Both the position numbers and the translations under genes were made by a program. DNA of 64,000 nt, taken from assembly GCA_003344405.1 (NCBI GenBank), contig NOWV01000019.1, forward strand, positions 496,001-560,000, written 5' to 3'. Shown here one piece after another: positions 26,801 to 57,270 of this stretch (position 1 is its first letter; each line of letters begins with the position of its first letter). The notes under the pieces are model-generated. The model searched no databases, had not been told where the DNA came from, and was given only the letters and a program-made list of their open reading frames with translations. Source of the DNA: Trichoplax sp. H2. Its lineage: Eukaryota.

Positions 26801-29800
26801 CATGAATGGTTTTGCAATCCGATACACATGGGCCGTAAGAAGTATAGCACCTGCAATGGAAATTACAGTGATTAGGTAGTTGCTTTGAACTATATTGATT
26901 GGGAATAAAAGTTCGATTGCTGTGTAGAGTGATCATTACCTGCAGCATAGAGTTACAATATGCGTTGGGTATATCAGTCTCCAAACCAGCAAAATTGGTT
27001 CGATTGTATGACTCAAAGTTAAAATCTTCTAAGCCTATCCAAATAAAGCAAATCATGCTCAGAGTTATTTCGGAAATAGGAGGTAAAATTTTTACTGTAA
27101 CGTGAGCATCTTTCAATTCTAGCGTAATTTTTAACTTACCAAGTTTGGAGTACTTCATAGCTACACGATGATAACGCTTTGGTATTTCACCATAATATTC
27201 ACTTAACGCATCTAATTTATGTAATGACGTAACATTACGAAAGAGATCTATATATACTTATGCCATTGTAACAGGTGTGGATTTTCAAACCTTGCTCCTC
27301 ATCAGACTCATTATTGTCCATAATATTGTCATCTAATTCATTGGCATTAGTAGCGCGAATTGTGTAGGGCATCTAATAACAAAGAGATTCAATCTTTACA
27401 TCTTTGCATTATCTTTAACCATAACGTTTAAATTAAAATTAAATTAAACATGCCTGATTGCGTTTGTAATTGACCGGTGCCGGAGCATATCCGATAAAAT
27501 TATTCATTTTCATGCTTTCTAAAATTTTCGGATCTATGGGTGCTAAGCGCCTTTAAATTATTTTTTAAGTAATTGCTATTAGACAATTTAAGTTGAAATG
27601 AAAAACTAACAAGATGCAAAGAGATGATAAGTTACATCTTCTAAATAAAATTCAAATCTTGCTTACCAAGTTCACGCACTTTTAACGAAATGAATGATCT
27701 ATCTAAATTGTCCATGTTAAACTATATAACGCTAACCTGTCTTTCACTTCTGTCAATTCATTGGACCAATCAGATAACAGCCTACCGCTACTATATACAG
27801 TAATATAAATAATCATTGTTAAAATGCACTTTAGAATTTGGGTAGTTTCAAAGATGTGAACAAAATACAAACTTGTCATAAGTGTAATCCATAGGCACCG
27901 TAGACAATCGTACAAAAGGATCGTTAATATCGAGGTATGGCAGCCGATTTTCCTATACATTGTTAATACATTACATGACAACTATAAAATGATTTTTACG
28001 ACTATAAATGACCAATATAAGATCGTAGCATCTCAAACACAAGTATTGATAGCCACAATATTGATTAGAATTTATTACATCAGCTGCAAATTCAGTTGGT
28101 TGTCCAAAATTATTCATCATAGCATCTTCTCGATTAGTCCAGACATGCAGATACCCTTTAACATTTGCATCACATGAAAATATTAACATATACTAGTATA
28201 ATTTTGCTAAGTTAGAATTTGAAGACTATGATCACAATTAGTCATTACACTTGATACAATGATTTAACATAACGGCATTACTCGTGTAAATTGGTTAAGC
28301 CATTGCAAACTTATTATGTCGTTTAATAAGCTGGCCCTACCTTCACTATCGCCGAAAGCAAATACTTGGGCGGATGGCGATACATCAAAAGCAAGTGGGT
28401 AGCCAGTAGATTCGATTTGTTGAACAATTAGGCTAGATGGCGTTAGCGGAACTCCTGGTTCACAAATTTGAAATTGGCCAGTCTAAAACAAAGCATATCG
28501 AATTATTATTATTATAGTAGGTTAATGATGGCTTTATTACATATAATGACAGTGGCTAAAGAAATTGTTACTTACATGGGAAACCACGGCCAACCGGGAA
28601 GTATAATTTGGCATAAATTTTAACAAAGTAGGATCGAAGTGAACCTAAAAATAATACAAGACTGTTACAGGACAGTATCTTGGACATTCTCGATATGTGC
28701 AGTCGCCAACATAAATATCATCGCCATACAGCCTCTATGCTTACTTGTATCGGATTTAGTGCTCTCATTGATCGTAAATCATACATCATCAGAAATCGAT
28801 CGCAATTTAAGTGACTATGTCTAATAATTGAAATTGTTAGTTTAGTGTACATCGTTTTGATTCGTAATTAAGTGATAAGACTTTATAATAATGGTAACGT
28901 CTATGGTGAACCTTGTTGAAAAGCCGCATGTTACGAGAAAATTATCGCTAACATCAATATCAGAAATAGAACCAGAATGAGCATCAATAGCGTTGATGCA
29001 CTGAAGCGTTGAAGGATCATGTAATGTCACCTATCACAAATTCACAATTTCAATTATTTCTTGACGGTATTAAATATAGCATACATTACAAGGTTAATTC
29101 AATTTTAAGGTAATTTAAATCAAGCTGGGTAACAATTGATGCTACGCGTAGATAGATACCTTTCCGGTAGTAGTTCCACAGCAAACATAACCAGATTTGT
29201 TGGAATAACGCAATACGGCATTAGAGCATTCAGTACTAGCCTAAATAATAAAGATGTTTATAATATCATTGTGTGATATCAGTTCCAATTTATGACTTAA
29301 CTTAAGATCCTCTTCATTGTACCTCTACTGAAAAGTATATTTATATCAGACTAAAATGAAAATCAGTGGTACGAAGAGAGGGGTGAATAAATTAACAGAT
29401 AATTTACTGGTATAAATTTTAAACTACTGAACAAGAGTGATTAAGCAAGTTGAATTCGGAATTAAATTAACATGTATATGTAGAAATTTTATATCAAGAT
29501 CAGTACAATATTCTGGCTTTACAAGTTACCTGTTTAGTGATTTTAGCTGATCTAAGATCGACTTGTGTTAGCAAGTTATTTTCGCCAGAGATGTAGGTTT
29601 TATCATGATTGGGATTGAGACACATACACTGCATATAATACAGCGAGGATTCATCTCTGCAATATCAAGAAATCATGTATTAATAAGGAAGAAACTAATA
29701 CCATAGATAGGCTGCTTTTGCAAGATTATAATTTGCCCTGGCTCTACCAGATTTAATTTGCAACAAATCTTTTATTGGCATTTAGGAAATGCGCGTTAAC

Positions 29801-34000: not shown

Positions 34001-35150
34001 TAAATTTTGCTTTATGTCAAGTTGCCTAGAAGTTTTGCTGAATTAACGAGAATAAAGATTACGTAATTTATATGATCTCCTTGTGTCAAAGCCGGAGTCG
34101 TGACACACCCTTAACTAATTCTGTTTAGCAGCACTATGGAAGCTCACGACCAAGTATTACAATGCGATCATAAAATTGGATTAACATTTTAAATCCTCGA
34201 GCGTTCATAACTTTGATAGCTCATACGAGAATAATCTTTTGGATATTTGGCTATTGATCGTCAAATGAATAAAAATACTCAATTGGGCTAAAGTTATGAG
34301 CACTATTTGTTCATAAGGTTAGGGGGAATAGGACTAGTAATGCATAAAATATCATCGTATGAAAGCCGTTTCTTATGGATATTGCGTCATTGGCAATAGA
34401 AACTAGTTCAGGCCTTGTCAGGATTAGCCTGAAACATTTGATCTTCAGAATATTGTGCAGAAGCTATTTAATATTAATGGGATACGAATAAAAGTAGAGA
34501 GAGCGTAATTAAAGCTTATGAGGAATAAGCAAGCTACCCAAAAACTGAGCAAACAATGCATCTTAATGTGTTCATATCATATTTTGCTTACAAGAGATCA
34601 TATGATATTATGGCTGCTGTTAGAAAGTTTAGGAAATGCGTGAACAAATGCATATTCGAAAAACAACCTTTTCTACCTGGAATACTAACAGCCTTATCCT
34701 ACCATTTCAAGGAAATATAGCAGTCACGATCATGAAACTAGGCCTACCTAACATGACTAGAACCTCAATCACGTATATTATTTATACGTTATGTTATACA
34801 TACATACATACTTAGAGGTACAAACAATCATTAAATTCTATTTTGAGTTGCAAATTGGCTGTGTCGTATCTAAATTATTTAAGTAAACAACGAAAATACT
34901 TGAAAAGTTCCAACGTATGAAGAGACTTTGCGAGAAAAATTAACTATACTTAGTTGTTATATATGTACATAATCAAGGATTGCTTGACAAATTAAATTAT
35001 CATATCATTCATACAATTTGTTTTTGAATCCCTTCTTTCTCGCTAGAACTAATAATACTGGGCTTTATGCAATGGGATAATGGCACTGTATGATGCTGAA
35101 TTAACACTTATTGAAACTTGCAATGAATAATGTTGTCGAATAAAATGAAT

Positions 35151-35470
35151 GCCAGTACAGTGTCTTACATTGTTTACGTCGTTCCGTGTTAGTTCCTATG
35201 GAAATTAATCTTATTTCAGTGCTTAACTACATCTTATTGAGCCTATCAATAAATCGCGTTATCCAATTAAATGAATGTGAGCATGGCGTCTAACATTTTT
35301 TACGTCATTTCAAGTTAGTCCCGAGAGAATTAATCCTATTTCAGAGCTCAATTAAATCTTACTGGAAACATAAATAAATCATGTTGTTGGATGGCGTGAT
35401 TGCCGGCACAGTGTCTTACATTATTTACGTAGTTCCAGACTATTCCCCAAGGAGATTAATCCTGTTTCCG
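35151..35470 (+). repeat. Three diverged copies of an approximately 125-bp unit upstream of the neuropeptide gene
   Basis: Shared core gtct(t/a)acatt.tttacgt....ttaatc.t.tttc near 35151, 35280 and 35402. Confidence 0.75.
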
Positions 35471-35579
35471 TCTTGATTATTAATTTGGCAAGAATATAGC
35501 CACAAATAAAAGACAAAGTAATTCTGAACATTATAGCTCTACATCCACTAGTTTTATTGTTTCTGAAAAGTAATTAACG

Positions 35580-35632
35580 TATAAAAGCCTTCACAACTTA
35601 TTTTCACTCTTACATCAAGTTTTTTTCGCCAG
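35580..35632 (+). promoter_or_regulatory. TATA box and probable short non-coding first exon of the neuropeptide gene
   Basis: TATAAAAG at 35580-35587, strong donor CAG|gtaaga at 35633, matching acceptor at 35843 just upstream of the ATG at 35864. Confidence 0.6.
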
Positions 35633-35863
35633 GTAAGACTAATGGGCAAAAAATCGATCACTTTCTGAAAACTCCACTCTTATACTTTAAGCTGTATTTT
35701 TTTAATATTGGCATCATCATTATCCGTAACTTAAGGTTCTATCTTTCTTAGCAGCAGGGCTAAACTCTAACCATATTATTTGCTTACGAATACAACTTTA
35801 TTTTACGTAAACTTATTTAGCGTTCTTTATTTTATCCTAACAGAACGAACCTTCAAAATCAAA

Positions 35864-38800
35864 ATGAGGTCAATTATTCTTATTTGCTTGTTATTCCTTT
35901 TCGCTGCAAAAGTGAATTCTGAATCGTTTGATTCAGATGACAAAAGAGATCTATTCTCAGATGAACACCAACGAAACAATGATGAAAACGTTGTAGAAGA
36001 TGGTGCTTCCATAAGCAGACAGTTTGCCTCAGAAAACGACGAAGACAACAATGAGGATCAGGTATATTCATAATCAATAAAATTAATATCGTCTTGAAGG
36101 AAATTTACTTCTCCGGACAGACATTATATCACTAGAATAAGGTGAAGACCATGGAGTGAACGCCTATATCGAAATTTCTTAATTAGACTGTACGATGTTT
36201 AATTTACGGCATAACTAGATATGATTTAAATACATTATTGATAGTCAAATAAGATGACAAGATAGCTAGTCAATTCTATTGATTGGCCAGTACATATTCG
36301 CAATGTAAAGCAATAACTATCGAGATCTAATGAAAATGTCTTCATCATTATTAGCAAGTCTTACAAAACAGCTTTGCAACAAGATTTGCAACAAGATAAC
36401 ATAATGCGCAATCAATCAGTCAATTCCCTGAACCACGTATCAGGGAGCAATATCTACTCATTCAGGAATACTCTTCCTATACCAGTAGACTACAGAAAGA
36501 CTTAGACGCCTCGTATCTTACGTTAAGCACTAATCATAATAACTAACTTTACTTTACGATTTATCGCATTTATATACTCTGTTACAATAGCAAAGACATC
36601 TTAGTTAGTAATGTTGGCGTTGAAACTTGATAATGAATCAAAAGCTAATTTTATCTACTGCTACCTAATGAAGACAACAGTATTTACGAACATAGACCTC
36701 AAATGACTAATAAAAAGTTATCAGATTACAATATGTTCTATTACGGAACATTTCTACGATAATCTACTATCTACCATAAGTAAATTACTATTACAGTGAT
36801 TTGAATTTATAAGAAGATTATTCTCGATTCCCTAATCAAATTACTAGTTTCAGTAGGCTGTATATATCACCATAAAAACTATTGCTATATTTAAATATCA
36901 CATATCTAAACTAGAAACCCTTCATAAAAGGGTAAATCAACAAAAGTATCCTAACATAGATGTTTCTACTATAATCTCGATATTACAGTGTATAACACTG
37001 TAACAGTGTCACAAACCAGCTTCGTGACAAGGATTACGTAAAATAAATCTCTAAATTACTATGGTCTTCCAGAATTCAGTATCCCTTAACTACCTCATAA
37101 GAATTTAGACGCCTTTGATTCTACGTTAAAACAACTATACAATTGAGAACTGCTTTATTCAACTATCTCACGGGTTTATATACCCTTCTACAGTAGCTAA
37201 CATTCACAAGTCATCTTATAAAAATACTTGGGTGAGAACATCTACTAACTAGTTTTTCACAGTCGGACTACAATATGCCCATTCACAGAATCATTTCAGT
37301 ACACATTACAGTACAGCAATAAATTTACTGTAACACATTTATAATTAGGGTAATTCCTATTGTAAGTGACTAGTTGTAATATAATATCACTACATTATAT
37401 TAACCAAATTTAGATATCTATTTCTTCACGGTAGTTCGTACCGTGACAAACAGTAAGTGACTAAAGTAGATAGAGAAGGATATACATTGGCGGATTGCAT
37501 TTTATCAGATTATGAATTAAGGTATGCCACTGTCACAAGCTAGCTGTGAATGCAACGCGCGATCGTACTCTAGAGCTCTAGCTAACCTATGGACTAGTCT
37601 AATGTAATACTGAATACCGTAGTTTAACCTTAACGACAACCTAAGTAGCACGTCTTAGCTGGTTTATGTTATAATAAAACTTTATTAACACAGTAAAGAC
37701 CTTGACAACCAAGACTAACATAGACTCGAGTCAGTGACACTAGATCAGATCGGAAGAACAATCACTGCTAACTGACTATTCAGAACCCCTGAGCATATAG
37801 AGAACAGCGGCTCCTTCTATACTCTCATTCTAGTATCCTAGTACATACTAGATGAACTTTAGCATAGAATCAATATACTATAGTATAAGCGATGCCTATA
37901 TTTTAGGCTGCTGCATACGAATTTAAAATTCGTAAGACAATAACTTATAAAGGTGTTGTTAGCAAACTAAACAAATTTGCCTAATAAACGCTCTAATTGC
38001 TTGAAAAATTGCGATTTCATCATGTTCCTTCATAAAGTGTATTTGGTACTACAGTATAGTATAGTAAATAAAGGCATCTAATAGCAAATATCATTGTTGA
38101 ACGCTTAGCTTGCAATTCAGCGCAAAAGAAACAGCATAAATTAGTCATTAATTTGCGATATTTAATTCATATTAGATGACAGAATTATTTACTACAATAT
38201 TGAGATTTAGGTGATTTTCGTGTTTGAATAGAAAGCTTAATACTACTTTGAAAGCCTGGTAGGCAAAAATATACTCTCATGAGCATGTTGATACTACAGT
38301 GTTTAAATGCTTTTTGCGACAGATTTATAAAGACAAATAGCACTACGCGTGATTTCTTTATGAAATTCGGCAGATTATGCGTAGTAGAAATACTGTTATA
38401 CGTAGGTATGTCAAAATTAAACCCAACTGTCATATTTAAAATTTTTAATATAGCCCTTAAAAGACATCTAATAAATCGACGATCATCATTATTTTTATAT
38501 GAGTGTATCTGCGATACCATGGACATAAGATATTGGTAAAAGAAAATATACATATTTGGTTAAATTTCTACTTATCGGCAAAAATTTATGTTTATTTAAT
38601 TATCCTAAAATTAAATAATATGCACACGCAATTATATTACAAGATATAGTGCCTATAGATAATGATACTGCGTACCTTTAGATTAACATGAAAAACAAAT
38701 TAATATGTATGGCTATTCACGAGTATCGTATACTATAGTGAATTTTACAGCAATAAGAATAAGTTTTATTTCATTAATATTGTTATATTTGATATATACT

Positions 38801-40258
38801 TTAATCTATTATTGCATAATAATTTGCAATATTACAATTCCGAAAAGATGATACTAAAAATAACTAATCAATTATAAAAAACTCTTCACTTTAGATACCT
38901 CCTTTGGGAAAATCTTTCGAACTTCCTGTAAGTAAATAGATAGCGCTACTATAATTATAGACAATGTGTCTGCACTACTATGGGCATAGCTATGTCATCT
39001 GCACTACTATGTGTAACAACTATTCTCAAAATTATTATTAATAAATTACTTATTATAAAATTTCTTGACTTTAGGAACGCAGACGCGGAAAGTCTTTCGA
39101 ATTTCCTGTAAGTCTATAGATATCGATACTATAGCCTGCAATAATACTATTCTTAAAGGCAATACTATTAAACAGCTCCTTATAAAACTTCTTGACTTTA
39201 GGAACACAGACGCGGAAAGTCTTTCGAATTTCCTGTAAGTCTATAGATATCGATACTATAGTCTGCAATGATACTATTTTAAAGGCAATACTATTAAACG
39301 GCTCCTTATAAAACTTCTTGACTTTAGGAACACAGACGCGGAAAGTCTTTCGAACTTCCTGTAAGTCTATAGATATCGATACTATAGTCTGCAATGATAC
39401 TATTTTAAAGGCAATACTATTAAACGGCTCCTTATAAAACTTCTTGACTTTAGGAACGCAGACGCGGAAAGTCTTTCGAACTTCCTGTAAGTCTATAGAT
39501 ATCGATACTATAGTCTGCAATGATACTATTTTAAAGGCAATACTATTAAACAGCTCCTTATAAAATTTCTTGACTTTAGGAACGCAGACGCGGAAAGTCT
39601 TTCGAACTTCCTGTAAGTCTATAGATATCGATACTATAGTCTGCAATGATACTATTTTAAAGGCAATACTATTAAACGGCTCCTTATAAAACTTCTTGAC
39701 TTTAGGAACGCAGACGCGGAAAGTCTTTCGAACTTCCTGTAAGTCTATAGATATCGATACTATAGCCTGCAATAATACTATTCTTAAAGGCAATACTATT
39801 AAATGACTTCTTATAAAATTTCTTGACTTTAGGAACGCAGACGCGGAAAGTCTTTCGAATTTCCTGTACGTCTATAGATATCGATACTATAGCCTGCAAT
39901 AATACTATTTTAAAGGCAATACTATTAAACGGCTCCATATAAAATTTCTTGACTTTAGGAACACAGACGCGGAAAGTCTTTCGAATTTCCAGTACGTTAG
40001 TAGATATCGAAATATTGATCTGCGATAGTACTATTGTCAAAGCGATATTAGTTTATCAAAAATTATAAAAATTTTTGCAATATGAACAATTTTTTGTAAA
40101 TATTTCTATCGATACAATTATGGAATTTGTGTAGTTTTACTGTTGGCCATTAAATCCCTACAAAATCAAGTGATTGATATCCGCATTCTCAAATAATATT
40201 AGTGCAATACTAATTGTGATAAATTTCTATGTTTCAGGAACGCAGACGCTGGAAATAA
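35864..40258 (+). CDS. ELPE: Secreted neuropeptide precursor, ELPE type (GKSFELPE/GKSFEFPE repeats); 11 coding exons, about 171 aa
   Basis: Exon 35864-36061 encodes a signal peptide (MRSIILICLLFLFAAKVNS) and an acidic spacer. Nine phase-0 33-nt exons follow at 38895, 39075, 39202, 39328, 39454, 39580, 39706, 39833 and 39959, each flanked by ctttag and gtaagt/gtacgt. Terminal exon 40238-40258 encodes ERRRWK*. The name is recalled from the placozoan peptide GKSFELPE. Confidence 0.88.
39020..40020 (+). repeat. 126-127 bp tandem repeat, 8 copies; each unit is one microexon plus one intron
   Basis: Exon starts are spaced 127, 126, 126, 126, 126, 127 and 126 bp apart; intronic parts are nearly identical. 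Confidence 0.97.
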
Positions 40259-43200
40259 TTAAATTAGGTTAAATCTTCCGTATGTTACATAGGTAAGAAT
40301 TTTGTATTAATTAGCTAGCGTAGAATATAAACCGATATTCTTACAAATTTATTTACCAACTCCAAACATTTATAAATATCACACGAGTAATATCATCTGT
40401 GGAATATCATTACAGCAGACATATTTTAGATAAAGATTTCAAAATATTTGACAGTAATATTCTAACAATCCGAGCATTAAACCGCAAATATTATGATGTT
40501 TTATATTTCTACGACACCTCAGACTTATTTGTGAGAATTTTCTATAAACCATTGCGGTGTCAGGAATCGACGTAAATTAATTCCGATGAATAACAATTAT
40601 ATCTAATTATCTATCCAAATAGCAATTATCATAAATCAACACTATTTAATTGCGATAAGTAACAACTATATCTGCTCGTCTATTCAACTACTACAGCTGC
40701 CCATTATTAATCGTTATACAATACAGTTCAACAACACATACAACATTCTGCTTCATATTCGCGCACTTAGTCGATTTTTGATAGTAGACTGTTATCCTAA
40801 ATGCATTAGAAATGCCGGATAGCCATATTTGAAAACAAATCTAATGACTCACTAATAATGATAACTTCTTTACAAAAGGAAGGCCGAAGATGTAGCGCTA
40901 AGGAAAAAAAGAACTTTGATCTAATCTTCAATAATTTGAATAGTGTAGTATTAAGTCATTGTTAGTAAATATTAAACCACTCAACCATCTTAAACTTTAA
41001 TTAACGATACTGATCATATCTCAACGTGGGTGTGTAGCTTAGAAGTTTAAATTATGCTCCTCTAATTTGTACTGTAGTTTGAGTCCTTTACTAATTTTTT
41101 CTAATTAACGATAGCTAAATGTATTGTTCCAATTTGGTAATTTGTTTCGTGATGTATTAGCAAGGCGTGAAGGAGAAATAAAACAATAATATCATACAAG
41201 CTAGAAATCGATGTGAATAAAAATATCTATCTATTTTTCATTAAATAGCTAAGTTTAATACAAACATCATTAACTAAATCACTGTAGAATTACTTAGAAA
41301 TTGCTAAAGCAAGTTTATAAATTATCAAGTAATCAAGCTGGATTAATTTAGCACTGAAGAAATATGGATCTCATGGTATGTTTAAATTTTATTCAGAGAC
41401 ATATCAAAGACAACCAATTTCGTGGCAAAAATAGCCTTCTATTCTTAGATCAGTTACCATGTCATATCAATCTATAGTAAAACAGAAGCTATGGACGGCT
41501 ATATTTCAGTAGAATCTAGAAATGCAAAACCAAGTAATAGAATAAGTAGAAAGAATAAAGAAAATATATATTATAGGCCATAACAATATAGCGGAAAGTA
41601 TCTGAAAAATCGATTTGTAACGAACAACTGACGACAGAATAATTTAAATCAGTTCTAACGATGAAATCAAAATTTTGAAGTGAATATAATCGTATCACAG
41701 TATCAAGGCTGCAGTTATTACGAGTAATCGTCAGCTCTCGATATAATAAAAATTTTATTTAGTAGATCTTAAGTTAACATCAATAGTATTTATGTGAGAT
41801 CTTTCGAGTATCAATCAGTAAATGCCAATATTGATACCATTAACTGATAATAGAAAAGATGCCTTAGCCTTATCAAATACGTACAGGTAATACACGAAAT
41901 TTGTTTAAAATAGCTAATCTCAAAGCTAGTAATAGCTATGTTTTGGTAGCTATTGTCTTGTTTGCCTTTAGATAACTTAATTTACGATATTCAAGGGGGA
42001 AAATTAGCCCTTATTTTATCGATTTCTCTTGTTTTCACTTCCATTAGGGTTGGTTATAGGCAAGTTTAATTACGAGATAAGTGCAAGGACTAATTTGATA
42101 ATATACCCGTTTGAGAACGAAGTTCAGTAAATTTATGAAATAGTCGGTTTGCAAAATGCCCAGTCAATTCATGAAATACTTATTCAGTTCGCGAAAATGC
42201 GTACTTAATGACAAAGTTAGCTTTATATACTTGCCCATACTATAATAATTATTAACAAGTAAATCAGAGAATTGTTTTTCTTCATTGACTGCCAATTTAT
42301 TGCAATAATCTAAACGATCAAAAAATATACGAGCGTTATGACCGCTAAATCAGTGCAAGAATATTGCCAAGTAAATCAGAAAATGTATACTTTTTTTTGA
42401 TTAAATAATAATAACTGAGTGCCAAATTAATGCAGTAATTCGAATAATCAATAAATATGTAACTTTACAATTATTGAATTGAGAATGTTCTAATTATAAA
42501 ACTAATAATTGATTTTTACAAATTCTCTGATTAATATGACATTCACTGTTACAATTAACATTAGCCATAAAGCATTTGCATCAGTTAGTAAAACAAGATG
42601 TATGATAGTAGTAAATTAACATGAAGTATCGTGATTGGAATAAACAACTTACTGAATCATATAGCTGGCCATATATGGAAACATGAATAAATAAAGGAAC
42701 ACTAAATCGGATAAATATTTTTCTTTGACTCATTGTATAGTAGCTAAAATTTTATAGTAATACAGTACGATATAGATTGTTTTTGAAATCATAGTTATAT
42801 TTCATTGGTATAAATACTTAGTCGTTGTGCCAAGATTACTTACTTCTCTACTTTTTAACATGCAGAATCACCTCTTGCATAAAAGTTCTTCTAAACTGTC
42901 ACACATCACTAGTGATAAAGTAAGTCTAAACACGCCAAACCTGACGAAGAACGCCTCTCACTGACTTAAAGAGGCGAGATTAGCTTTATCACCAAATAGA
43001 TCAATTCCAACGACCAAATGCCATAATTATAGTGTCACTGATAGTGTAGACGAGGCAGTCAGATAATGACTACTGTTTATTACTCAAGAAATCATGATAA
43101 CCAAGATTATAGTCTAGATAGTTCGATAGCAATTGACAAACTAGTTGACTAACTAACTAAAAATTATTATCTGTTTTTTCGCACATCAATACTCTTAATC

Positions 43201-46699: not shown

Positions 46700-47310
46700 C
46701 TTTACACTAAGTCAGTGGACCCTAATTGTAATCTTCTTCGTAAGATAAAACTATAAACTCTTGGGCTTTTAGTTTTACTGCCATAAATAGCGTGAATTGT
46801 AAGTTCACCCTATATGACAAAGTTAGTAAACCCCAATTTTAATCCTCACCTCCGTAAGATCAAACTATCAACTCAGACTTCAGACTTGCTACGATCATAA
46901 GTTCAGCATTTCATGCTTACCAGTAGTTAGAAGACCATAATTCTAATCCTCGCCTCCGTAAGATAAAACTATAAACTCTTTGACTTCAAACTTGCTACCA
47001 TGATAAGTTCAGCCTTTAGCGCTAAGTCAGAGGACCTTAATTTTAATCTTTGCGTCCGTAAGATAAAACTATAAACACTTCGACTTCAATCTTACTACCA
47101 TTATAACTTCATCACTTAGGGCTAAATTAATGGACCCTAATTTTAATCCTCGCCTCTATACGATAAAACTATAAACTCTTTGATTTCAGTATAAGTGCCA
47201 TCACAACTTCACCCCTAAGCCTTCAGTTAAACCTAATTTTAAGCCTCGCTTTCGTCAGCTAAAATTATAAACCCTTGGACTTTAGCAGTACAGCCGTTAC
47301 AAGTTCATCA
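46700..47310. repeat. Degenerate approximately 100-bp tandem repeat, about 6 copies
   Basis: Recurrent ccctaattttaatcctcgcctccgtaagataaaactataaactct core near 46741, 46855, 46958, 47058, 47159 and 47255. Confidence 0.85.
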
Positions 47311-48211
47311 TTCAGCAAATAAAATAAATACTACAGTAAGGCTTCAAAAGATAAAAATAATTGCAGACGATAGAATATAAAATTCCTTTTATCCATGGAA
47401 GGTGTTACTAACTAAACAAGCGATTAAAAGGAGTTGTGGCAACAAGAACGCGTGCCACATCACCCTATCCTAATACTATACGTTGCATGGCCAACCCTTT
47501 TCTTCGACACCAAATGATCCCTTCCATTTGAATACAGTACAGTAAATCGAATGATTTAAATTTCTGTGCACAATGTTTCTGTTTACCTTGAGTAATAGAG
47601 ATATGACAATCACGAATAATCAACGACCGTTGCCATATCCAGTTCAAAGATATTACCCTTACTCGCAACCAAGCAGGGAAATGTTGCTGTCATGACTGTA
47701 TAAGCTGTTAGATTGAATTAGAGAAGTATAATTATTGATCCAATTCTGCATCCACGTCGTTTAAGGGATAATAGAATACAAAAGAAGAATCTATTTTCTA
47801 TTCATCCATATTAATGGCCTCCTATCTTGACGTGAAGAACCAATCGAATGTTATTGATGTTTTCTCGTCTTGTTTTCATTAACGCAGTTGCTGAGCTCTA
47901 TGTTTAATTACGCAACCTCAGATTGGACTTTGATATTGTATTTAAAATATACAGTCGTTAAATTATTGTCTTCAATCAAGTGTGGGAAGTCCAAGTGTAC
48001 TATGTTGGCAAAAAGAATGGATAGATGCAATTTTTAATTGGTAGGTTAGACTTTCATTGTCATTATCGACTTGATAAAAGTTAGTTTAATCGTTGTAAAA
48101 TATCTTTTGAATGATACTCTTCCTTCAGGCTAATTGAAAAAGGGAAAGGGAAGAATCGCGTTGAATGGTAAAGTTAGAGTAGAATTGAAGACTGGCTCAC
48201 TGTTGCAAAAA

Positions 48212-51200
48212 ATGGCAATATTACCGGATAACATTAATGTCGATAGTGTACTGGATGAAATTGTACAGTCGATGAAGAATGTACATCAATTGGATAAAAC
48301 GAAACAGTTAGTTTATCAATTAGATAGTAAATCGATCATCGATAAGATAATTGATCCTTTATCTGTGGCCACAAAAATCATTCAAATTGTTCAAAATCAT
48401 TATCAGACGATTGGATTTGAATGGCTATATCCATTACTTCAGTTTGCTCGAGAGAACGTTATTTTTTCAAATTTGAATGACATCATTGGCCAAGAAAATC
48501 AACAACGAATCCTCTCTACAATTGGCTGTGTTGAAAATTTGAAAGAGAAAATGCTCAAATTAATTAAGGACTGGAATGAGACAGAAAGTTACAAAATGAC
48601 GGATAATCTTCCACCCTATCCAATTTATGCTGAATTAGATATCCTATATCAACTCTTGCATGCTATATTAAATCAAGATCCAACGGGTCTTTTCCAAAAA
48701 ATACATAATGTATACAATAAGTGCTTTGATATTATTGAATCTGTTTTGATTTATGATTGCCAACGATTAATTGCTTTGGTTCAGGAATTAAAAGCTTGGA
48801 TAACTACCGATCTATCTTATGTCAGCCATTATATCTATTTAGACATTATGAATAAAATTATCGGCTGCAGCTATTGCAGTTTTAATCAAAGAGAATTTAC
48901 CTATTCTGGTGGTCAAATTTATTACCTAGATGGCTCTGTTTTTGTCATGGAACCGTATTACTCGATCTGGAATGTTGTTCAGAAGACTACAAGTTGGAAA
49001 TCATCCACTTTCCAATCCAATATTATTCTACAGAAAGGAATAACCGATACCATTAAAATATTTCAATCCATCAAATTACCCATTAAAATTAAAGACCAAA
49101 TTAAAGTCGATTTAGCCAACATGATGAGTCAGTTGAGTCATCCCTATCTCGACTATTTAATATGGTATCATCGGCAGCCACTAGCAGAAATAGTTCACGA
49201 TGATTTATTAGCCAAGCTAACACTACTGGAGTTATCCCCTAAATATTCAGGGATGGCAGTTCAATTATCTGAACTCGAATTCATTCCACTTTTAACTCAA
49301 CTACCAACCATCATCAATTTACCTTCATCAAAAGAAACTTTAATACAACGCCATCATTACTTCAATCAAATCTATCACGAGATGGACGTGCAAGGTCATC
49401 ATTCAATGGTCTTGTCTGGTCTAGCTGGGGTTGGGAAATCATCATTAGCTCTTCATTATGCTCGATCACATACAATCCATTACAATTGCATACATTGGTT
49501 TCATGCCGAGACAGAATTATCCTTGCAACATGATTTCATAAAATTAGCCAAGGCAATCCTGAGAAATAAACAACGATTCCATTTAGAAAAAAAACCCCAA
49601 TTGGATTCCATTCGCGATTGTTTAGATCAATTTACGGAGAATTCTGAATTGCTACAGTCCGTTGGCGATAATAATATTATTATTGCATCACAATTAAAAA
49701 CTTGTGATGAACAACGGATTGATCTGATCAATAAGCTTGTCCAGGCTACCTTGGATTTTATACTTGGCCACTATTGCTTTTTACTGATTTATGATAATGC
49801 TGACCAAGAAGAAATCGTCCGACGCTATATGCCTCAAAGACAAGGTCACGGTCTTGTACTGCTGACATCTCGGTATGCTAACTGGGGCGATGTGGAAAAG
49901 ATTAACATTGATTTATTCCAACGCCAAGAATCCATTGATTATTTGCTACAACGAACCAATTCAGAGGATAAAGAATCTGCTGATTTAGTTGCCAATCGAA
50001 TTTGTGATTTACCTTTAGCCTTGTCGCAAGCTGTCGCTTATATTCAACGTACTGGTATTTCACTAAGTGGATATCATGCACGATTAATGGCAGAAGAAAA
50101 TGATATTGCTCAAGATAGTTACTCATCTGCATATTATAAAAAATATCAGCAAGTCGACTCTGGACAAATTAAATTAAGCCAACAACTGACGCCGTTGACA
50201 ACATGGTCCTCTACCTTTTCTCAATTAGTTACTAATAATCCCTCTATTCAATCCATGTTTATGCTAATTGCTTATATTCAAGTAGACCAGTTAACAGATA
50301 ACTTATTATTCGAATTTTGCCAACTACAAGATCCCAACACAAAAAGAGAAGATTATAACAATGCCATCTGTGGCTTAAATCATTATCATGTTTTACATGG
50401 CTGCCCAGAGGGTAGTTTACCTAGCTATAAAACGAATAAATTAATCCAAATGGCTATACGCAATCATATCTTGGAAATTGTTTCAACTCAGTTAGGACAT
50501 TCATTAGGCGATTGGATATACGTCCAAGATATAATCTTATGCCGAATTTTAGTCTATTTTGTTGATAAGCTAAGTCATGATGAATGGATCGAATCCGATG
50601 ACCAGACTGTTGGCCAAAGTTTAAACTTAATTTATCATGCTGATCAACTTCGGCAACATTTATTAAATAGCGAATTACTATCCCATCAACGCTTGATGTT
50701 AGAAGAAAAAATGACTAAAATGTACACGACAATCACCAATCCATTATCTCAACTGGAGATGAATATTATGGCCAAGATTGAAACTTTTAAAATGGCGCGT
50801 AAGTACTTCTATTCGTGTTTGTGCATCCACATTTTTCGTTACTTTCAAAAATTTCGGTTGTAAATCATTTTATTTTCGCCTCTATACTCGTTGTTGATTC
50901 ATGCCTCATGCATACTACCTTGGTGTTTTATTCCCCCCTCCATACTCATCATTGATTTATGCCCTATACATATTATCTTGACTTACCGGAAACCAACAGC
51001 AGAGTATTTAAATGTTTACTTTTAATACTGATTATTTTCAACATGATCGTAGTCGGGTTTTTTTTATCAGATCTTGCTACCTAGCATTCGTATAAGTAAC
51101 ATTTTACGAATAGTTTACGGCAGGATAATTAAATCAATTAGCATATTTACATATTGCATATCACAGAATGAGTAACAATTCCCTAGTTTATGTTCATTAC

Positions 51201-54200
51201 AGTAGAAAGTTTTCGCCATTCAAGTGCAGGTTTGAATAAGCCTTACATGATTAAAATTAATTACTTATCGCAGATTCACAAAATTACTTAAGCTTGCAAT
51301 AAATGTGGCCTACTGTAGAAAGTTCCGTTTAGAATATATTTTTATGGCGAACTAACTATTTAAAGCTAATCAAGCAATAATTATGACCTACTGTGGAGAG
51401 TTTCGGATATGATATACGGTATATATAGTATTATGATGGACTAAACGTTTAAATGTAATTTTGTAATAATGATGACTTTCTTTAGACAATTCTGGTTATA
51501 ACGTATGACATATAAATTATTACGGTAGATTAATCATTTAAAGCTAGTTTTGCAATAATTTTGGCTTACTATATCGAGAATTTCGGTTATATGCATAATG
51601 TACGATATATAGTATTATGGTAAACTTAACATTTAAATCTAATCTTGCAATAATTGTGACTTACAGTATACTTACAGCAGAGAATTCCCATAAAATATTC
51701 ACTTTCGTTAGACCAGTGATCAGTTGTACTCTAATAATGTAATGATTGGTACTAAAAGAGTTATTGCTAATGTTAAAGGATGAATTGTTAACAATCATAA
51801 CAAAATTATTTTAACCATAGTAAATTATAGAAGTGACGAAGATGAAGGCTACGATACTAAATTTGCTGATGATATTGATGTAGATCGAGGTCTGTAAAAT
51901 TTATTCTTTAAATCTAATTTTTATTTTGTATTTAATCTAATAGCCATGTTCATTTGCTAGTTTTAGAAACAGATTTTGCTTTAAACAAAACTTAGTCTCA
52001 CCTATCAGATTATTTCGATTTAATATACTAACATTATCTTTTAAAGTTACCGTAGCTATAAAGTATATTATGATTATTGTGATACTTTGTATTCGCCTAA
52101 TTGACAGCGTTATTAAACTAAATTCAAAACCTTACATTAGATATTATCTGCAGTAAGCGTATAAAGGATATTATCGTTTTAATTCATTCTTCAGATCGTG
52201 ATTCATCCATGGAACAAGCGAATGTATCTTACGAGGACAGCCAAGTTTCCAACCATGTTTTGCGGTCTGTAGGAGGTGTTAGTGGTGTTGAAATTGGCGA
52301 AGAAATAAAATTATCCACAGCTGATGATATCCAAGAAAAAAGTGCCTTAAGTTTAAGCCCAGTTCAGCAAGATAGCGATTACTTTAATGACTCTGATGTG
52401 ATTCAAGACAGCCCAGGGATAACTAATGAGAGCAATCCAAATCTTCAATTAGCAGCTCAAGACTTGACACATACTACCAATACAGCGGACAGCTCTACAA
52501 TAAACGAAAGCGATCCAGAAAATTCTGCTTTAAATAAATTACACCTATCTGATGATCCCCTATTAATCTTAGAATTAGTTATAAAAGAAGCTGAAGTAGT
52601 GGAGGAGGAGATTACTATAACAAATGAGCCAAATGTTGAGATAAATGAAACAGAAGCCGTTGGCACAATCCCGGAGAAAAATCATGGCCAGAATCATTCC
52701 TCACCGATAAACACCTCTAGAAGTGATGATATAGCCAACGCAGAAGTAGCTGAAGATGCATTAGTAGGTTTTTATGAAGAAGATATCAGATCAAGTATTG
52801 AAGCTACGGCAGATATAAGCGAAGCCGCTCAAGACAATAATGCAACAACGAAAATGAATGAGAATGGAGATAATCTTTCCATCGCTAAGACCACTTCCAC
52901 ATCCACTACAGACCCTAGGCGAGTTTATAGCCAACCTAATGTTAATAATGTTGCTGCAGCTAAATTCTACTATGATCCTGCACCTAATGTAAAGAGGGAT
53001 CGCAGTGTATCGGATCTCCGGTGTACAATTTTTCCAATAATGAAGCCAGGTAGAGTACTGTTTTAATTTGTAGGTTTTAATGCAGAGAATTTCATTTTTT
53101 ATTGCTAATATTTTTACCTTTTCGATTCTTTCTTTATTCTACCGACGCTGATAAAAAACGATGATGACTATAGCTGCAACTGGATACCCACAAAAGTCGA
53201 TTACTATTTTAGCTAATAAAACTAATTGCTTCAAGTTAAAAGAAGCTCCAGGTGTCCAACTTACAATAACACCATCTTGCTTTCAGATTGATACCAGTGC
53301 TACTATATCTGTATTTTATGCCGATCCACCTTATAATAAAGGCCTGAATAGCGGATGTATTCAAATGGCTCCTATAGTTCGAATAAAATGCGATGATATT
53401 ACAGGGCAACAGTCAACACGATTCCCTTTTTCATTGCAAATTCCCGTGCCTCTTGCTGAAGAAATTTGCCTATATTTGTCAGTCAAGAAAATTAATGAAT
53501 TGCCTGTACAAATTTTGCATCGACGCCATGAGCCTGATAGTGAATGGGAATTACTGGATTCTAAATTTACCTACTTTGTTAATGATCATTCGTGCCCATG
53601 TATTAGTTTTAATATGCATTACTTTGCTGATGTAACATTTGTCTTGGACGATGTTTTATCTACAATGCAACAAATATCGCAGGATACATTTCCAAGTTTT
53701 CAGCAACACATACGATTATGGAGTTATGTCTCTTTACCAAGAAAAGGGTCCACTCGGTCTATCATGAAGTTGATTATCGCTAAAACTGGGCTGGGACATA
53801 TTAGTATTTTGGATGCTATTGAAAATAATCCCAATTTTATACCATTAGAGGCAACAGGATTAGATGATTTCGTCGTTCGCAATGGATCTTATCGCCTTCA
53901 CTTTGTACCTATATCTTCAGCTTGTGGGCTAATAGAAGATTTTCCAGTTTATACTGCTTTCGATTGGAATAACAGAAATTACTTTGCATTTGACATTAAA
54001 TGCCGTTTAAAAGATCCAGCATCTAATAATGGTAACTTGGGAAAATTATGTCTTTCCCAAGTCAGCGAGGAACGTACTGTTCACGAATGTAATCTGATCA
54101 TGGTAAGGTCGACCAGTAGAACTCAACAGATTGCCATTTCTTAAAAATTTTTAAACTTTCATACTAGGAAAAGTACTGGTATAGCTCTAATATATTTCAA

Positions 54201-56814: not shown

Positions 56815-57270
56815 TAAAGCGGATTAGCTACGCTATTAGCATCTGAATGATCTACATTTTTCGTAACTGGATGATCTATACTATTAGAGTATGAGCGATC
56901 TGCATCTTTCAGAAGCAGGATATCCATGTTGTTAATCTATGAATGATTAGCATCGGTCGGAAGTGAATTATTTAGGCCATTAATATACGAACGAATTACT
57001 TATTTCGAAAGTGGATTATTCATGGAATTGGATGGATTATTTATGCTGTTTAGATATGAATGATCTGCATCTTTCGGAAGCGGATTATTTATACTGTTAG
57101 TGTATAAATGATCTGTATATTTCGGGAACGGATTATCTTTGCTGTTAGCATATGAGTGATCGACATTTTTCGGAAGCGGATTATCCACGGAATTAGCCAA
57201 TGAATCATACACATTATTTAGATATGGATTATTTGTGCCGTTTAGATAGGAAATGTCGACTGGAATCAAC
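56815..57270 (-). repeat. Degenerate 48-bp (16-codon) tandem repeat, about 9 copies
   Basis: The minus frame reads repeated D(A/V)DHSYxNSxxNPLPK units; later copies contain in-frame stops. Confidence 0.75.

What the first reader, a model, noticed from the sequence alone, without database searches (positions are those of the whole stretch)
38895..40258. A satellite-like array that is a neuropeptide gene: one 33-nt microexon per repeat unit
Seen: each 126-127 bp unit contains ttcttgactttag|GAA C(G/A)C AGA CGC GGA AAG TCT TTC GAA (C/T)TT CC(T/A)|gta(a/c)gt. Spliced to the signal-peptide exon, this gives IPPLGKSFELPE-RRR-GKSFEFPE-HRR-GKSFEFPE-HRR-GKSFELPE-RRR-GKSFELPE-RRR-GKSFELPE-RRR-GKSFELPE-RRR-GKSFEFPE-HRR-GKSFEFPE-RRR-WK. 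Peptide repeats in precursors commonly sit within one exon; here the duplicated unit is exon plus intron. All exons are phase 0, so exon skipping or unequal crossover would change peptide number without breaking frame (inference). Near-identical introns imply recent expansion or concerted evolution. The peptide itself is, as I recall, already described; the gene architecture is the notable part. It is invisible to the ORF track and would be repeat-masked.
Basis: partly seen in the sequence, partly recalled or inferred. Interest (0 to 1): 0.9.

Follow-up and report, generated by a model that had tools for sequence, protein, structure and literature searches.

The report
Peptide gene built from tandem microexons
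This is the already known Trichoplax gene for the secreted ELPE peptide, in which each of nine peptide copies has its own 33-base exon within a near-perfect tandem repeat; it is a neat case of a gene layout already described in Hydra and frogs.

Summary
A 126/127-nt tandem array (39053-40010) carries 33-nt, phase-0 microexons flanked by AG and GT. With an older copy at 38895 there are nine microexons.

RNA contigs from three studies join the signal-peptide exon (ends 36061) to 38895 and join microexons to each other. They also join the last microexon to a terminal exon at 40238. A DNA-like run shows no such joints.

The 171-aa product has nine GKSFE(L/F)PE copies separated by RRR or HRR. It is the published ELPE prepropeptide. 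Synthetic GKSFELPE alters Trichoplax behaviour, and the mRNA is found in dorsal epithelial cells.

The public Trichoplax sp. H2 model TrispH2_002981 already holds all nine microexons. Its last donor, 4 nt downstream of the one the RNA contigs use, gives a different C-terminus.

Inner units are 94-100% identical and three introns are identical. Edge units are about 72% identical to the core. This fits recent unequal crossing-over or gene conversion.

The layout is not new. The Hydra GRFamide preprohormone-C gene and the Xenopus caerulein and magainin genes are built the same way.

Exon skipping and copy-number variation remain untested. I rate it a new member of a known kind, of modest interest.

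The parts
35600..35632 (+). 3' end of a 5'UTR exon. Its start was not determined. Donor is CAG|GTAAGA at 35632|35633.
   Evidence: Loose ends of RNA contigs in X9 and X11 before 35841 match window 35600-35629 exactly. The sequence was read. The contigs carry 352-381 further letters upstream whose place I could not see.
35633..35843 (+). 5'UTR intron (GT..AG, 211 nt)
   Evidence: The boundary is ambiguous by up to 3 nt because CAG occurs on both sides. The GT..AG rule places it here.
35844..36061 (+). First coding exon. ATG at 35864. It encodes a signal-peptide-like N-terminus of 19 aa and an acidic spacer of 47 aa (17 D/E, 4 K/R). The coding part is 198 nt and ends in phase 0.
   Evidence: Sequence. 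Translation. RNA contig depth is 716-1755 here, against 5-40 in the intron. The signal peptide was judged by eye only.
36062..38894 (+). Intron of 2833 nt (GTATAT..TTTAG). It holds a highly repeated element at about 36990-37450.
   Evidence: Joint 36061->38895, GT..AG, in X4, X9 and X11 at depths 716, 1510 and 2218, and absent in X1.
38895..38927 (+). Microexon 1 (IPPLGKSFELP). It is an older, diverged copy, followed by a 147-nt intron.
   Evidence: Its unit is 91 of 126 aligned bases identical to a core unit.
39053..40010 (+). Tandem array of exon-plus-intron units, period 126/127 nt, holding microexons 2-9.
39075..39107 (+). Microexon 2 (ERRRGKSFEFP)
   Evidence: The splice from microexon 1 into an R-type exon is seen as loose ends at 38928 in X4, X9 and X11.
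39202..39234 (+). Microexon 3 (EHRRGKSFEFP)
   Evidence: The F|H junction class is seen in X4, X9 and X11. The tool placed it at 39865->39959, and it is identical in sequence to 39107->39202.
39328..39360 (+). Microexon 4 (EHRRGKSFELP)
   Evidence: No junction contig specific to this exon was listed.
39454..39486 (+). Microexon 5 (ERRRGKSFELP)
   Evidence: Loose ends at 39487 lead into an R-type exon in X4, X9 and X11. This L|R class is shared by microexons 4-7.
39580..39612 (+). Microexon 6 (ERRRGKSFELP)
39706..39738 (+). Microexon 7 (ERRRGKSFELP)
   Evidence: Joint 39738->39833 in X4 at depth 2.7.
39833..39865 (+). Microexon 8 (ERRRGKSFEFP)
   Evidence: Joint 39865->39959 in X4, X9 and X11 at depths 1765, 11143 and 3450.
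39959..39991 (+). Microexon 9 (EHRRGKSFEFP, ends CCA), followed by a 246-nt intron.
   Evidence: The joint listed as 39233->40238 with one letter A between is 39991->40238. It is seen in X4 and X9 at depths 695 and 3724.
40238..40292 (+). Terminal coding exon (ERRRWK, stop at 40256-40258) plus the first part of the 3'UTR. It is a decayed repeat unit with a 1-nt insertion.
   Evidence: (79% identity to the unit's acceptor and exon start).
40293..40878 (+). 3'UTR intron (GT..AG, 586 nt)
   Evidence: Loose ends behind 40293 in X4 and X9 match window 40880-40905 exactly. Sequence.
40879..41133 (+). Last (3'UTR) exon, at least about 255 nt. The true end is not determined. AATAAA motifs lie near 41178 and 41214.
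   Evidence: The poly(A) site is inferred from the motif only.

Best explanation
This is the ELPE prepropeptide gene of Trichoplax. The window encodes the Trichoplax sp. H2 model TrispH2_002981 letter for letter.

Gene structure. The gene has at least 13 exons:
- a 5'UTR exon;
- a signal-peptide and acidic-spacer exon;
- nine 33-nt phase-0 microexons;
- a short terminal coding exon;
- a 3'UTR exon.

Each microexon encodes E-(R/H)RR-GKSFE(L/F)P. That is the last residue of the previous peptide, the basic processing site, and the first seven residues of the next peptide. Any donor joined to any acceptor therefore rebuilds a complete peptide and keeps the frame.

Shown: the exons are spliced in series. 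This gives a 171-aa precursor with nine copies, five of GKSFELPE type and four of GKSFEFPE type.

Inferred from established prohormone processing: a convertase cuts after RR and a carboxypeptidase trims the basic residues. This would release GKSFELPE and GKSFEFPE(H). The first copy has no basic site on its N-terminal side.

Inferred from the sequence pattern: the array grew, and is kept uniform, by unequal crossing-over or gene conversion of a 126-nt exon-plus-intron unit. The effect is more peptide per transcript.
For: Repeat and exon anatomy.

In-frame joined CDS of 516 nt with nine basic-site-flanked copies.

RNA contigs:
- The joint 36061->38895 appears in 3 of 3 RNA-like runs laid (X4 is RNA on record; X9 and X11 behave as RNA), from three studies.
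- Also seen are the F|H microexon junction (3 of 3 runs), L|R junctions as loose ends at 38928 and 39487 (3 of 3), and the last-microexon-to-terminal-exon junction (2 of 3).
- Junction and exon contigs stand at depth 700-11000, against 5-40 for intron contigs.
- Run X1 has flat depth of about 94 and none of these joints.

Identity with the public model: 177 of 177 aa are reproduced from the window when the model's last donor is used.

Published biology (passages read):
- Synthetic GKSFELPE ('ELPE') at 20 uM makes animals flatten and churn.
- The Ta ELPE mRNA is in nearly all dorsal epithelial cells. Orthologues were found only in H1 and H2.

Recent homogenisation:
- The 7 complete inner units differ at 2 of 33 exon columns and 10 of 94 intron columns.
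- Three introns are identical.
- All four combinations of the two exon variants occur.
- Edge units are 91 of 126 identical to the core.
Against: - All runs laid were assembled contigs with 31-letter words, so no single molecule spanning all nine microexons was seen.
- Most microexon junctions can only be assigned to a sequence class, not to one exon pair. Their shorter sides are 18-30 letters.
- The number and order of inner units rest on the assembly alone. The DNA-like contigs anchor only the two flanks, up to 39078 and from 39961.
- The public model probably derives from the same assembly, so it is not independent support.
- The signal peptide was judged by eye.
- I did not see mature peptides.
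- Exons are not more conserved than introns (Fisher p = 0.73). The array therefore shows no sign of purifying selection, only youth or homogenisation.
Confidence: 0.88

Rival explanations
1. The array is a splicing dial. In-frame skipping of microexons is common and produces precursors with different numbers and L/F/H mixes of peptides, as reported for the Hydra GRFamide preprohormone-C gene. This adds to the gene model rather than replacing it.
For: - All microexons are 33 nt and phase 0, with near-identical splice sites.
- In X4 one contig at depth 1010 joins an F-type exon ending CCT to an R-type exon. The tool placed it at 39234->39833, skipping 598 nt. That junction class does not exist in the serial order of the window.
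- Hydra shows such splice variants.
Against: - The odd junction is seen in 1 of 3 RNA-like runs only.
- That run carries another organism label (B) and differs from the window at several intron positions.
- One base change turning an HRR exon into RRR in that lineage, or a different unit order there, would give the same contig without any skipping.
- Contigs cannot count isoforms.
Confidence: 0.3
2. The number or order of units in the window is an assembly error, either collapse or expansion of a 126-nt repeat. The gene is real, but the count of nine is not.
For: - Short-read contigs of the DNA-like run break at both edges of the array.
- No listed piece spans it.
- Inner units are up to 100% identical.
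Against: - The units carry a consistent mosaic of variants rather than a featureless consensus.
- The public H2 model has the same nine copies in the same order, though probably from the same assembly.
Confidence: 0.15
3. The product is not a signalling peptide. It is another kind of epithelial secretion, for example a surface or defence-related product of dorsal epithelial cells. On this view the behavioural effect of bath-applied peptide is pharmacological.
For: - The mRNA is in nearly all dorsal epithelial cells. About half of them co-express an intelectin.
- The authors judge a primary role in starting feeding unlikely.
- The effect was analysed in depth at 20 uM.
- There is no amidation signal and no relatives outside Trichoplax.
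Against: - The precursor has the standard layout of a multi-copy propeptide with basic cleavage sites.
- Synthetic GKSFELPE changes behaviour in a reproducible way, n = 42 animals in 5 trials.
Confidence: 0.25
4. The coding sequence is on the minus strand. A stop-free frame of 266 codons runs through the array at 39071-39871.
For: The open frame exists.
Against: - It has no Met codon.
- Its Pfam matches are eight unrelated families with no single passing stretch, which is repeat inflation.
- All splice joints read GT..AG on the plus strand.
- A 126-nt unit is 42 codons, so any frame that happens to be open in one unit stays open across units.
Confidence: 0.02

Closest known systems
Trichoplax ELPE prepropeptide (Ta ELPE; public model TrispH2_002981 of Trichoplax sp. 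H2)
   Same: It is the same gene. All 177 aa of the model are encoded by the window. The predicted peptide GKSFELPE is the published synthetic 'ELPE'.
   Different: The model uses a donor 4 nt downstream of microexon 9 (39995|39996) and ends in VRTQTLEIIKLG. RNA contigs in X4 and X9 use 39991|39992, which gives ERRRWK-stop. None of the ELPE papers I could read mentions the exon structure.
Hydra GRFamide preprohormone-C gene (Koch, Hauser and Grimmelikhuijzen 2021, PMC8638164; passages read)
   Same: - Exon 1 carries the signal sequence.
- Seven inner exons each encode one peptide copy.
- The end of each peptide is encoded at the start of the next exon.
- Exon choice changes the number of copies without breaking the frame.
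- It is also a non-bilaterian animal.
   Different: - There is no sequence relationship.
- Alternative splicing is shown there and not here.
- Here the exons are 33-nt microexons in a near-perfect 126-nt tandem array with near-identical introns. I did not see exon or intron sizes or intron identity for Hydra.
Xenopus laevis caerulein and magainin genes (Roelants et al. 2013, PMC3731216; passages read)
   Same: [quoted passage not shown]
- The authors explain this by recent duplication or gene conversion and unequal crossing-over.
- They propose that it boosts peptide yield per transcript.
   Different: These are vertebrate skin-defence peptides and are unrelated in sequence. I did not see unit sizes.
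Beetle periviscerokinin (Capa) genes (Veenstra 2019, PMC6585902; passages read)
   Same: One to four inner exons each encode one peptide. The introns are all of the same phase, so exon gain and alternative splicing keep the frame.
   Different: - The introns are phase 1.
- The copies are few and diverged.
- The introns are described as much larger than those of the pyrokinin gene.
- They do not form a satellite-like array.
Schistosome micro-exon genes (MEGs; PMC10526429, abstract start seen in the search listing only)
   Same: They encode secreted products from many short exons.
   Different: MEG exons of 3-81 bp are separated by long introns of up to 5 kbp, not by 93-nt introns in a tandem array. 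Their products are not multi-copy peptide precursors, and there is no homology.

Membership tests
Trichoplax ELPE prepropeptide gene | Encodes the published ELPE peptide GKSFELPE in several copies | tested here: met
   Five GKSFELPE and four GKSFEFPE copies. The peptide sequence is as given in 10.1101/360925.
Trichoplax ELPE prepropeptide gene | Sequence identity with a named Trichoplax protein | tested here: met
   P0001 (TrispH2_002981) matches the first coding exon at 100%. It is reproduced 177 of 177 from window exons.
Multi-copy secreted propeptide precursors | N-terminal signal peptide | tested here: inconclusive
   The N-terminus MRSIILICLLFLFAAKVNS has a charged start, a hydrophobic core and a small-residue end. 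This was judged by eye. No signal-peptide predictor was available.
Multi-copy secreted propeptide precursors | Repeated short peptides flanked by di- or tribasic cleavage sites | tested here: met
   Nine copies, each followed by RRR or HRR. The first copy lacks a basic site on its N-terminal side.
Multi-copy secreted propeptide precursors | Mature peptides detected in the animal | not testable with these tools
   H2 peptidomics exists, but its tables are in supplements, which are closed.
Peptide genes with one copy per tandem-repeated exon (Hydra preprohormone-C, Xenopus caerulein and magainin) | Each repeated exon encodes one peptide copy with its processing site | tested here: met
Peptide genes with one copy per tandem-repeated exon (Hydra preprohormone-C, Xenopus caerulein and magainin) | Repeated exons share one intron phase, so exon number can change in frame | tested here: met
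   All are 33 nt and phase 0.
Peptide genes with one copy per tandem-repeated exon (Hydra preprohormone-C, Xenopus caerulein and magainin) | The exons are really spliced in series | tested here: met
   Junction contigs in 3 of 3 RNA-like runs and none in the DNA-like run. The full series on one molecule was not seen.
Peptide genes with one copy per tandem-repeated exon (Hydra preprohormone-C, Xenopus caerulein and magainin) | Alternative splicing varies the copy number | tested here: inconclusive
   One out-of-order junction in 1 of 3 RNA-like runs. That run is from another organism label, so a strain difference explains it equally well.
Peptide genes with one copy per tandem-repeated exon (Hydra preprohormone-C, Xenopus caerulein and magainin) | Common descent with those genes | tested here: not met
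   Of 85 hits at E<=0.001, 84 lie mostly in the repeat part of the query. The 5 I read are unrelated periodic proteins. This is a likeness of design, not of ancestry.
Schistosome micro-exon genes | Short exons interspersed with long introns | tested here: not met
   Introns between the microexons are 93-147 nt. The MEG definition comes from the abstract start.

The most novel reading that the evidence does not exclude
The ELPE array is a young, fast-changing dosage and mixture dial in a gene found only in the Trichoplax lineage. On this reading:
- unit number, unit order and the L/F and R/H variants differ between H1, H2 and even individual clones through unequal crossing-over;
- the identical splice sites also allow regulated in-frame exon skipping.

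Peptide dose and peptide mix would then vary both genetically and at the RNA level. That would make it a tractable natural model of how multi-copy peptide precursors are born and expand.
Probability: 0.3. Interest if true: 0.5.

Novelty: new member of a known kind. Interest (0 to 1): 0.3.

Why it matters
The finding shows, with RNA support, that a placozoan multi-copy peptide precursor grew by duplicating a 126-nt exon-plus-intron unit rather than by repeats inside one exon.

Together with Hydra preprohormone-C and the frog skin-peptide genes, this makes three independent origins of the same design. That suggests it is a recurrent route to raising peptide yield per transcript.

Practical points:
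- The public H2 model probably has a wrong C-terminus.
- Repeat masking and ORF-based annotation would hide this gene.
- A spurious 266-codon antisense frame could mislead annotators.
- Nine identical donor and acceptor pairs 93 nt apart are a natural test of how short introns are paired correctly.

The gene and its peptide are already known, so none of this changes the view of placozoan signalling.

Tried and rejected
- Whole genome: none is held for this window. I could not check whether other placozoan propeptide genes share the layout, or whether the gene is single-copy.
- Earlier notes of this scan: nothing relevant.
- Homologues:
  - Two word-index searches returned only the H2 protein itself.
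  - The full phmmer scan gave 85 hits at E<=0.001. The 84 besides the protein itself lie mostly in the repeat part of the query. The 5 of them I read are unrelated proteins with repeats of about 10-21 residues. I rejected them as periodicity matches.
- Pfam: nothing above cut-off for the precursor.
- Antisense frame: inflated, incoherent Pfam matches. Rejected.
- Related units elsewhere in the window: none. The best outside blastn hit has E = 0.15, and the peptide motif is found only at the nine microexons.
- The 100-nt array at 46835-47282 looked by eye as if it shared the acceptor motif. It gave no blastn hit to the unit.
- The three ~126-nt direct repeats upstream (35095-35471) are unrelated to the ELPE unit.
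- Copy number from depth: not possible. Depth is summed over contigs that fit several units.
- Low or absent RNA-run cover in bin 39242-39402, and the absence of some junction classes from the tables, are not evidence.
- Two low-depth contigs in X9 (39108->39204 and 39108->39205, depth about 5) are the normal F|H junction with one changed letter. I took them as errors.
- Literature: the query 'paracopies' + 'each exon' + 'neuropeptide' found nothing. Searches gave no case bearing on ELPE.

Full report
**1. The observation**

- Tandem Repeats Finder reports a 126-nt period, 7.6 copies, 96% matches and no indels at 39053-40010.
- The repeat finder gives start-to-start spacings of 126 or 127 nt. 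It adds a more distant copy 180 nt upstream and a decayed copy at 40221-40254.
- A script that looked for AG|33 nt|GT found nine segments.
- The core motif occurs 9 times in the window, against 0.03 expected from 100 shuffles.
- The coding part of the upstream exon is 35864-36061 (198 nt) and each microexon is 33 nt, so all junctions are phase 0.
- The joined CDS is 516 nt, or 171 aa.
- The terminal coding exon begins at 40238, with the stop at 40256-40258.
- Reading through any donor meets a stop within four codons.
- With an ATG start required, only the first coding exon appears as an ORF (69 aa) among ORFs of 40 aa or more.

**2. Is it spliced?**

I laid contigs of four public runs on 35700-40500.

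Run X1 behaves as DNA. Its depth is flat at about 94 across exons and introns, and it has none of the joints below.

X4 is an RNA library on record. X9 and X11 behave as RNA. The three come from three studies, and they show the following.
- The joint 36061->38895 (GT..AG, 2833 nt skipped) appears in all three, at depths 716, 1510 and 2218.
- A microexon-to-microexon joint skipping 93 nt appears in all three, at depths 1765, 11143 and 3450.
- Loose ends at 38928 and 39487 run on into the first letters of an R-type microexon, in all three.
- A joint from an F-type exon ending in A to 40238 appears in X4 and X9. Only microexon 9 ends in CCA, so this is 39991->40238.
- Intron contigs in these runs stand at depth 5-40.

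Because the exons are near-identical, most junction contigs define a class (L|R, F|H) and not one exon pair. Their shorter sides are only 18-30 letters, which is the most a 33-nt exon allows. No contig spans the whole series, so the complete nine-exon molecule is inferred.

Loose ends also reveal two further features.
- A 5'UTR exon ends at 35632. The loose letters match 35600-35629.
- A 3'UTR intron lies at 40293-40878. The loose letters match 40880-40905.

**3. What it is**

The first coding exon finds a single protein in 5.8 billion clusters: TrispH2_002981 of Trichoplax sp. H2, 177 aa, 100% identical. The whole protein again finds only itself.

That model holds the same nine copies in the same order. 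I reproduced it 177 of 177 from window exons, provided the last donor is 39995|39996. That choice shifts the frame of the last exon. The RNA contigs use 39991|39992 instead. The public C-terminus (VRTQTLEIIKLG) is therefore probably wrong, and ERRRWK-stop is right.

Published work, from passages I read:
- The preprint 10.1101/360925 lists the synthetic peptide 'ELPE' as GKSFELPE. It says ELPE had not been reported before. Application at 20 uM makes animals adhere, flatten and churn.
- PMC11452194 reports the Ta ELPE mRNA in nearly all dorsal epithelial cells and a few ventral ones. It finds orthologues only in H1 and H2, and doubts that the cells' main role is to start feeding.
- PMC10580291 cites ELPE as controlling ciliary beating and reports H2 peptidomics. 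The peptide tables are in supplements I could not open.

No Pfam family matches the precursor. A full phmmer scan of 1.84 billion representatives gave 85 hits at E<=0.001. The 84 besides the protein itself lie mostly in the repeat part of the query. The 5 I read are unrelated periodic proteins. The gene is therefore lineage-restricted, as far as these searches see.

**4. How it most likely works**

Shown: the exon series is spliced, and it yields a precursor made of four parts.
- a signal-peptide-like N-terminus, judged by eye;
- a 47-aa acidic spacer with 17 D/E;
- nine copies of GKSFE(L/F)PE, each followed by RRR or HRR: five L-type and four F-type, three of the F-type before HRR;
- a short C-terminal remnant, WK, after the last RRR site.

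Inferred from standard prohormone processing: cleavage after the basic residues and carboxypeptidase trimming give GKSFELPE and GKSFEFPE, or GKSFEFPEH. The first copy has no basic site on its N-terminal side.

The exon border falls between P and E. Each exon therefore carries the last residue of one peptide, the cleavage site, and most of the next peptide. Any donor joined to any acceptor restores a full peptide.

**5. Origin of the array**

I aligned the seven complete inner units.
- They vary at 2 of 33 exon columns. Both changes alter the protein (R/H and L/F).
- They vary at 10 of 94 intron columns. The exon and intron rates do not differ (Fisher p = 0.73).
- Three introns are identical.
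- All four combinations of the two exon variants occur, and they do not follow the intron variants. That points to exchange between units or to recurrent mutation.

The first and last units are only 91 of 126 identical to a core unit and carry insertions. The terminal exon is a decayed unit with a 1-nt insertion that creates WK-stop.

A diverged edge with a uniform core is the usual signature of a tandem array evolving by unequal crossing-over or gene conversion. This is inference.

**6. What remains open**

- One contig in X4 (depth 1010) joins an F-type exon ending CCT to an R-type exon. That junction does not exist in the window's serial order. It could be exon skipping. But X4 carries another organism label and differs from the window at several intron positions. 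A single base change, or another unit order in that lineage, explains it equally well.
- The number of units rests on the assembly. The DNA-like contigs stop at 39078 and resume at 39961.

**7. Comparison with what is known**

The layout has clear precedents.
- Hydra GRFamide preprohormone-C gene (PMC8638164, passages). It has ten exons. Exon one holds the signal sequence. Seven exons each hold one peptide copy, and the last residues of each copy are supplied by the next exon. Transcripts with different exon sets exist.
- X. laevis caerulein and magainin genes (PMC3731216, passages). [quoted passage not shown] The authors discuss recent duplication, gene conversion, unequal crossing-over and a boost in peptide yield.
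- Beetle periviscerokinin genes (PMC6585902, passages). They add peptide exons flanked by same-phase introns.

What is particular here:
- the small and uniform exon size, 33 nt;
- the short, near-identical introns of 93-94 nt, which make the locus look like a satellite;
- the host, a placozoan.

On whether the ELPE exon structure is already in print:
- 'exon', 'intron', 'splic' and 'gene structure' are absent from the main texts of PMC11452194 and 10.1101/360925.
- 'exon' is absent from PMC10580291.
- GKSFELPE occurs in one paper of the library.
- Searches showed nothing else on it.
- Subscription papers and supplements were not searchable, so this is not proof of absence.

**8. Verdict**

The gene and peptide are already known and already modelled. 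The architecture is a new member of a known kind. Interest is modest.

Noticed in passing
window 39959-40258 (donor choice 39991|39992 versus 39995|39996): The public Trichoplax sp. H2 model TrispH2_002981 ends in VRTQTLEIIKLG because it uses a donor 4 nt downstream. RNA contigs in two runs use the upstream donor, which gives ERRRWK-stop (171 aa instead of 177).
   Followed up: yes
window 39071-39871, minus strand: A stop-free frame of 266 codons without any Met runs antisense through the array. It exists because the unit is 42 codons long. Its Pfam matches are inflated by the repeat and are incoherent. It could be mistaken for a gene.
   Followed up: yes
window about 36990-37450 (a 34-nt stretch at 37096-37129 is 74% like 36493-36526), inside the 2833-nt intron: A highly repeated element. 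In the DNA-like run the summed contig depth reaches 1e5-1.8e5, against about 94 beside it, with many variant contigs. It is also present in the RNA runs. No terminal inverted repeat was found with a 10-nt seed.
   Followed up: partly
window 35095-35471: Three direct repeats of about 126 nt (66-72% identical) lie just upstream of the 5'UTR exon. They are unrelated to the ELPE unit and share a conserved core containing TTACGT. They may be regulatory modules, or part of a longer 5'UTR, since RNA contigs extend 352-381 letters beyond the splice at 35841.
   Followed up: partly
window 40264-40500 and beyond: RNA-run contigs also cover the 3'UTR intron unspliced (X9 depth 294; X11 a 2452-nt contig from 40321 at depth 114). 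This suggests intron retention, an alternative 3' end or a neighbouring transcript.
   Followed up: no
window 46835-47282; also 15284-15508, 51421-51664, 57034-57184: Other tandem arrays are present: 100 nt x 4.5 at 76% matches, 83 nt x 2.7 at 97%, 95 nt x 2.6 at 74%, and 48 nt x 3.1 at 78%. The 100-nt array gave no blastn hit to the ELPE unit. The others were not examined.
   Followed up: partly
window 26028-27257 (minus) and 48134-50863 (plus): Neighbouring genes. Exons of a UCH_1 ubiquitin hydrolase lie on the minus strand (E = 1e-38). A 909-codon single open frame on the plus strand has weak NB-ARC and AAA_16 matches below Pfam cut-offs.
   Followed up: partly
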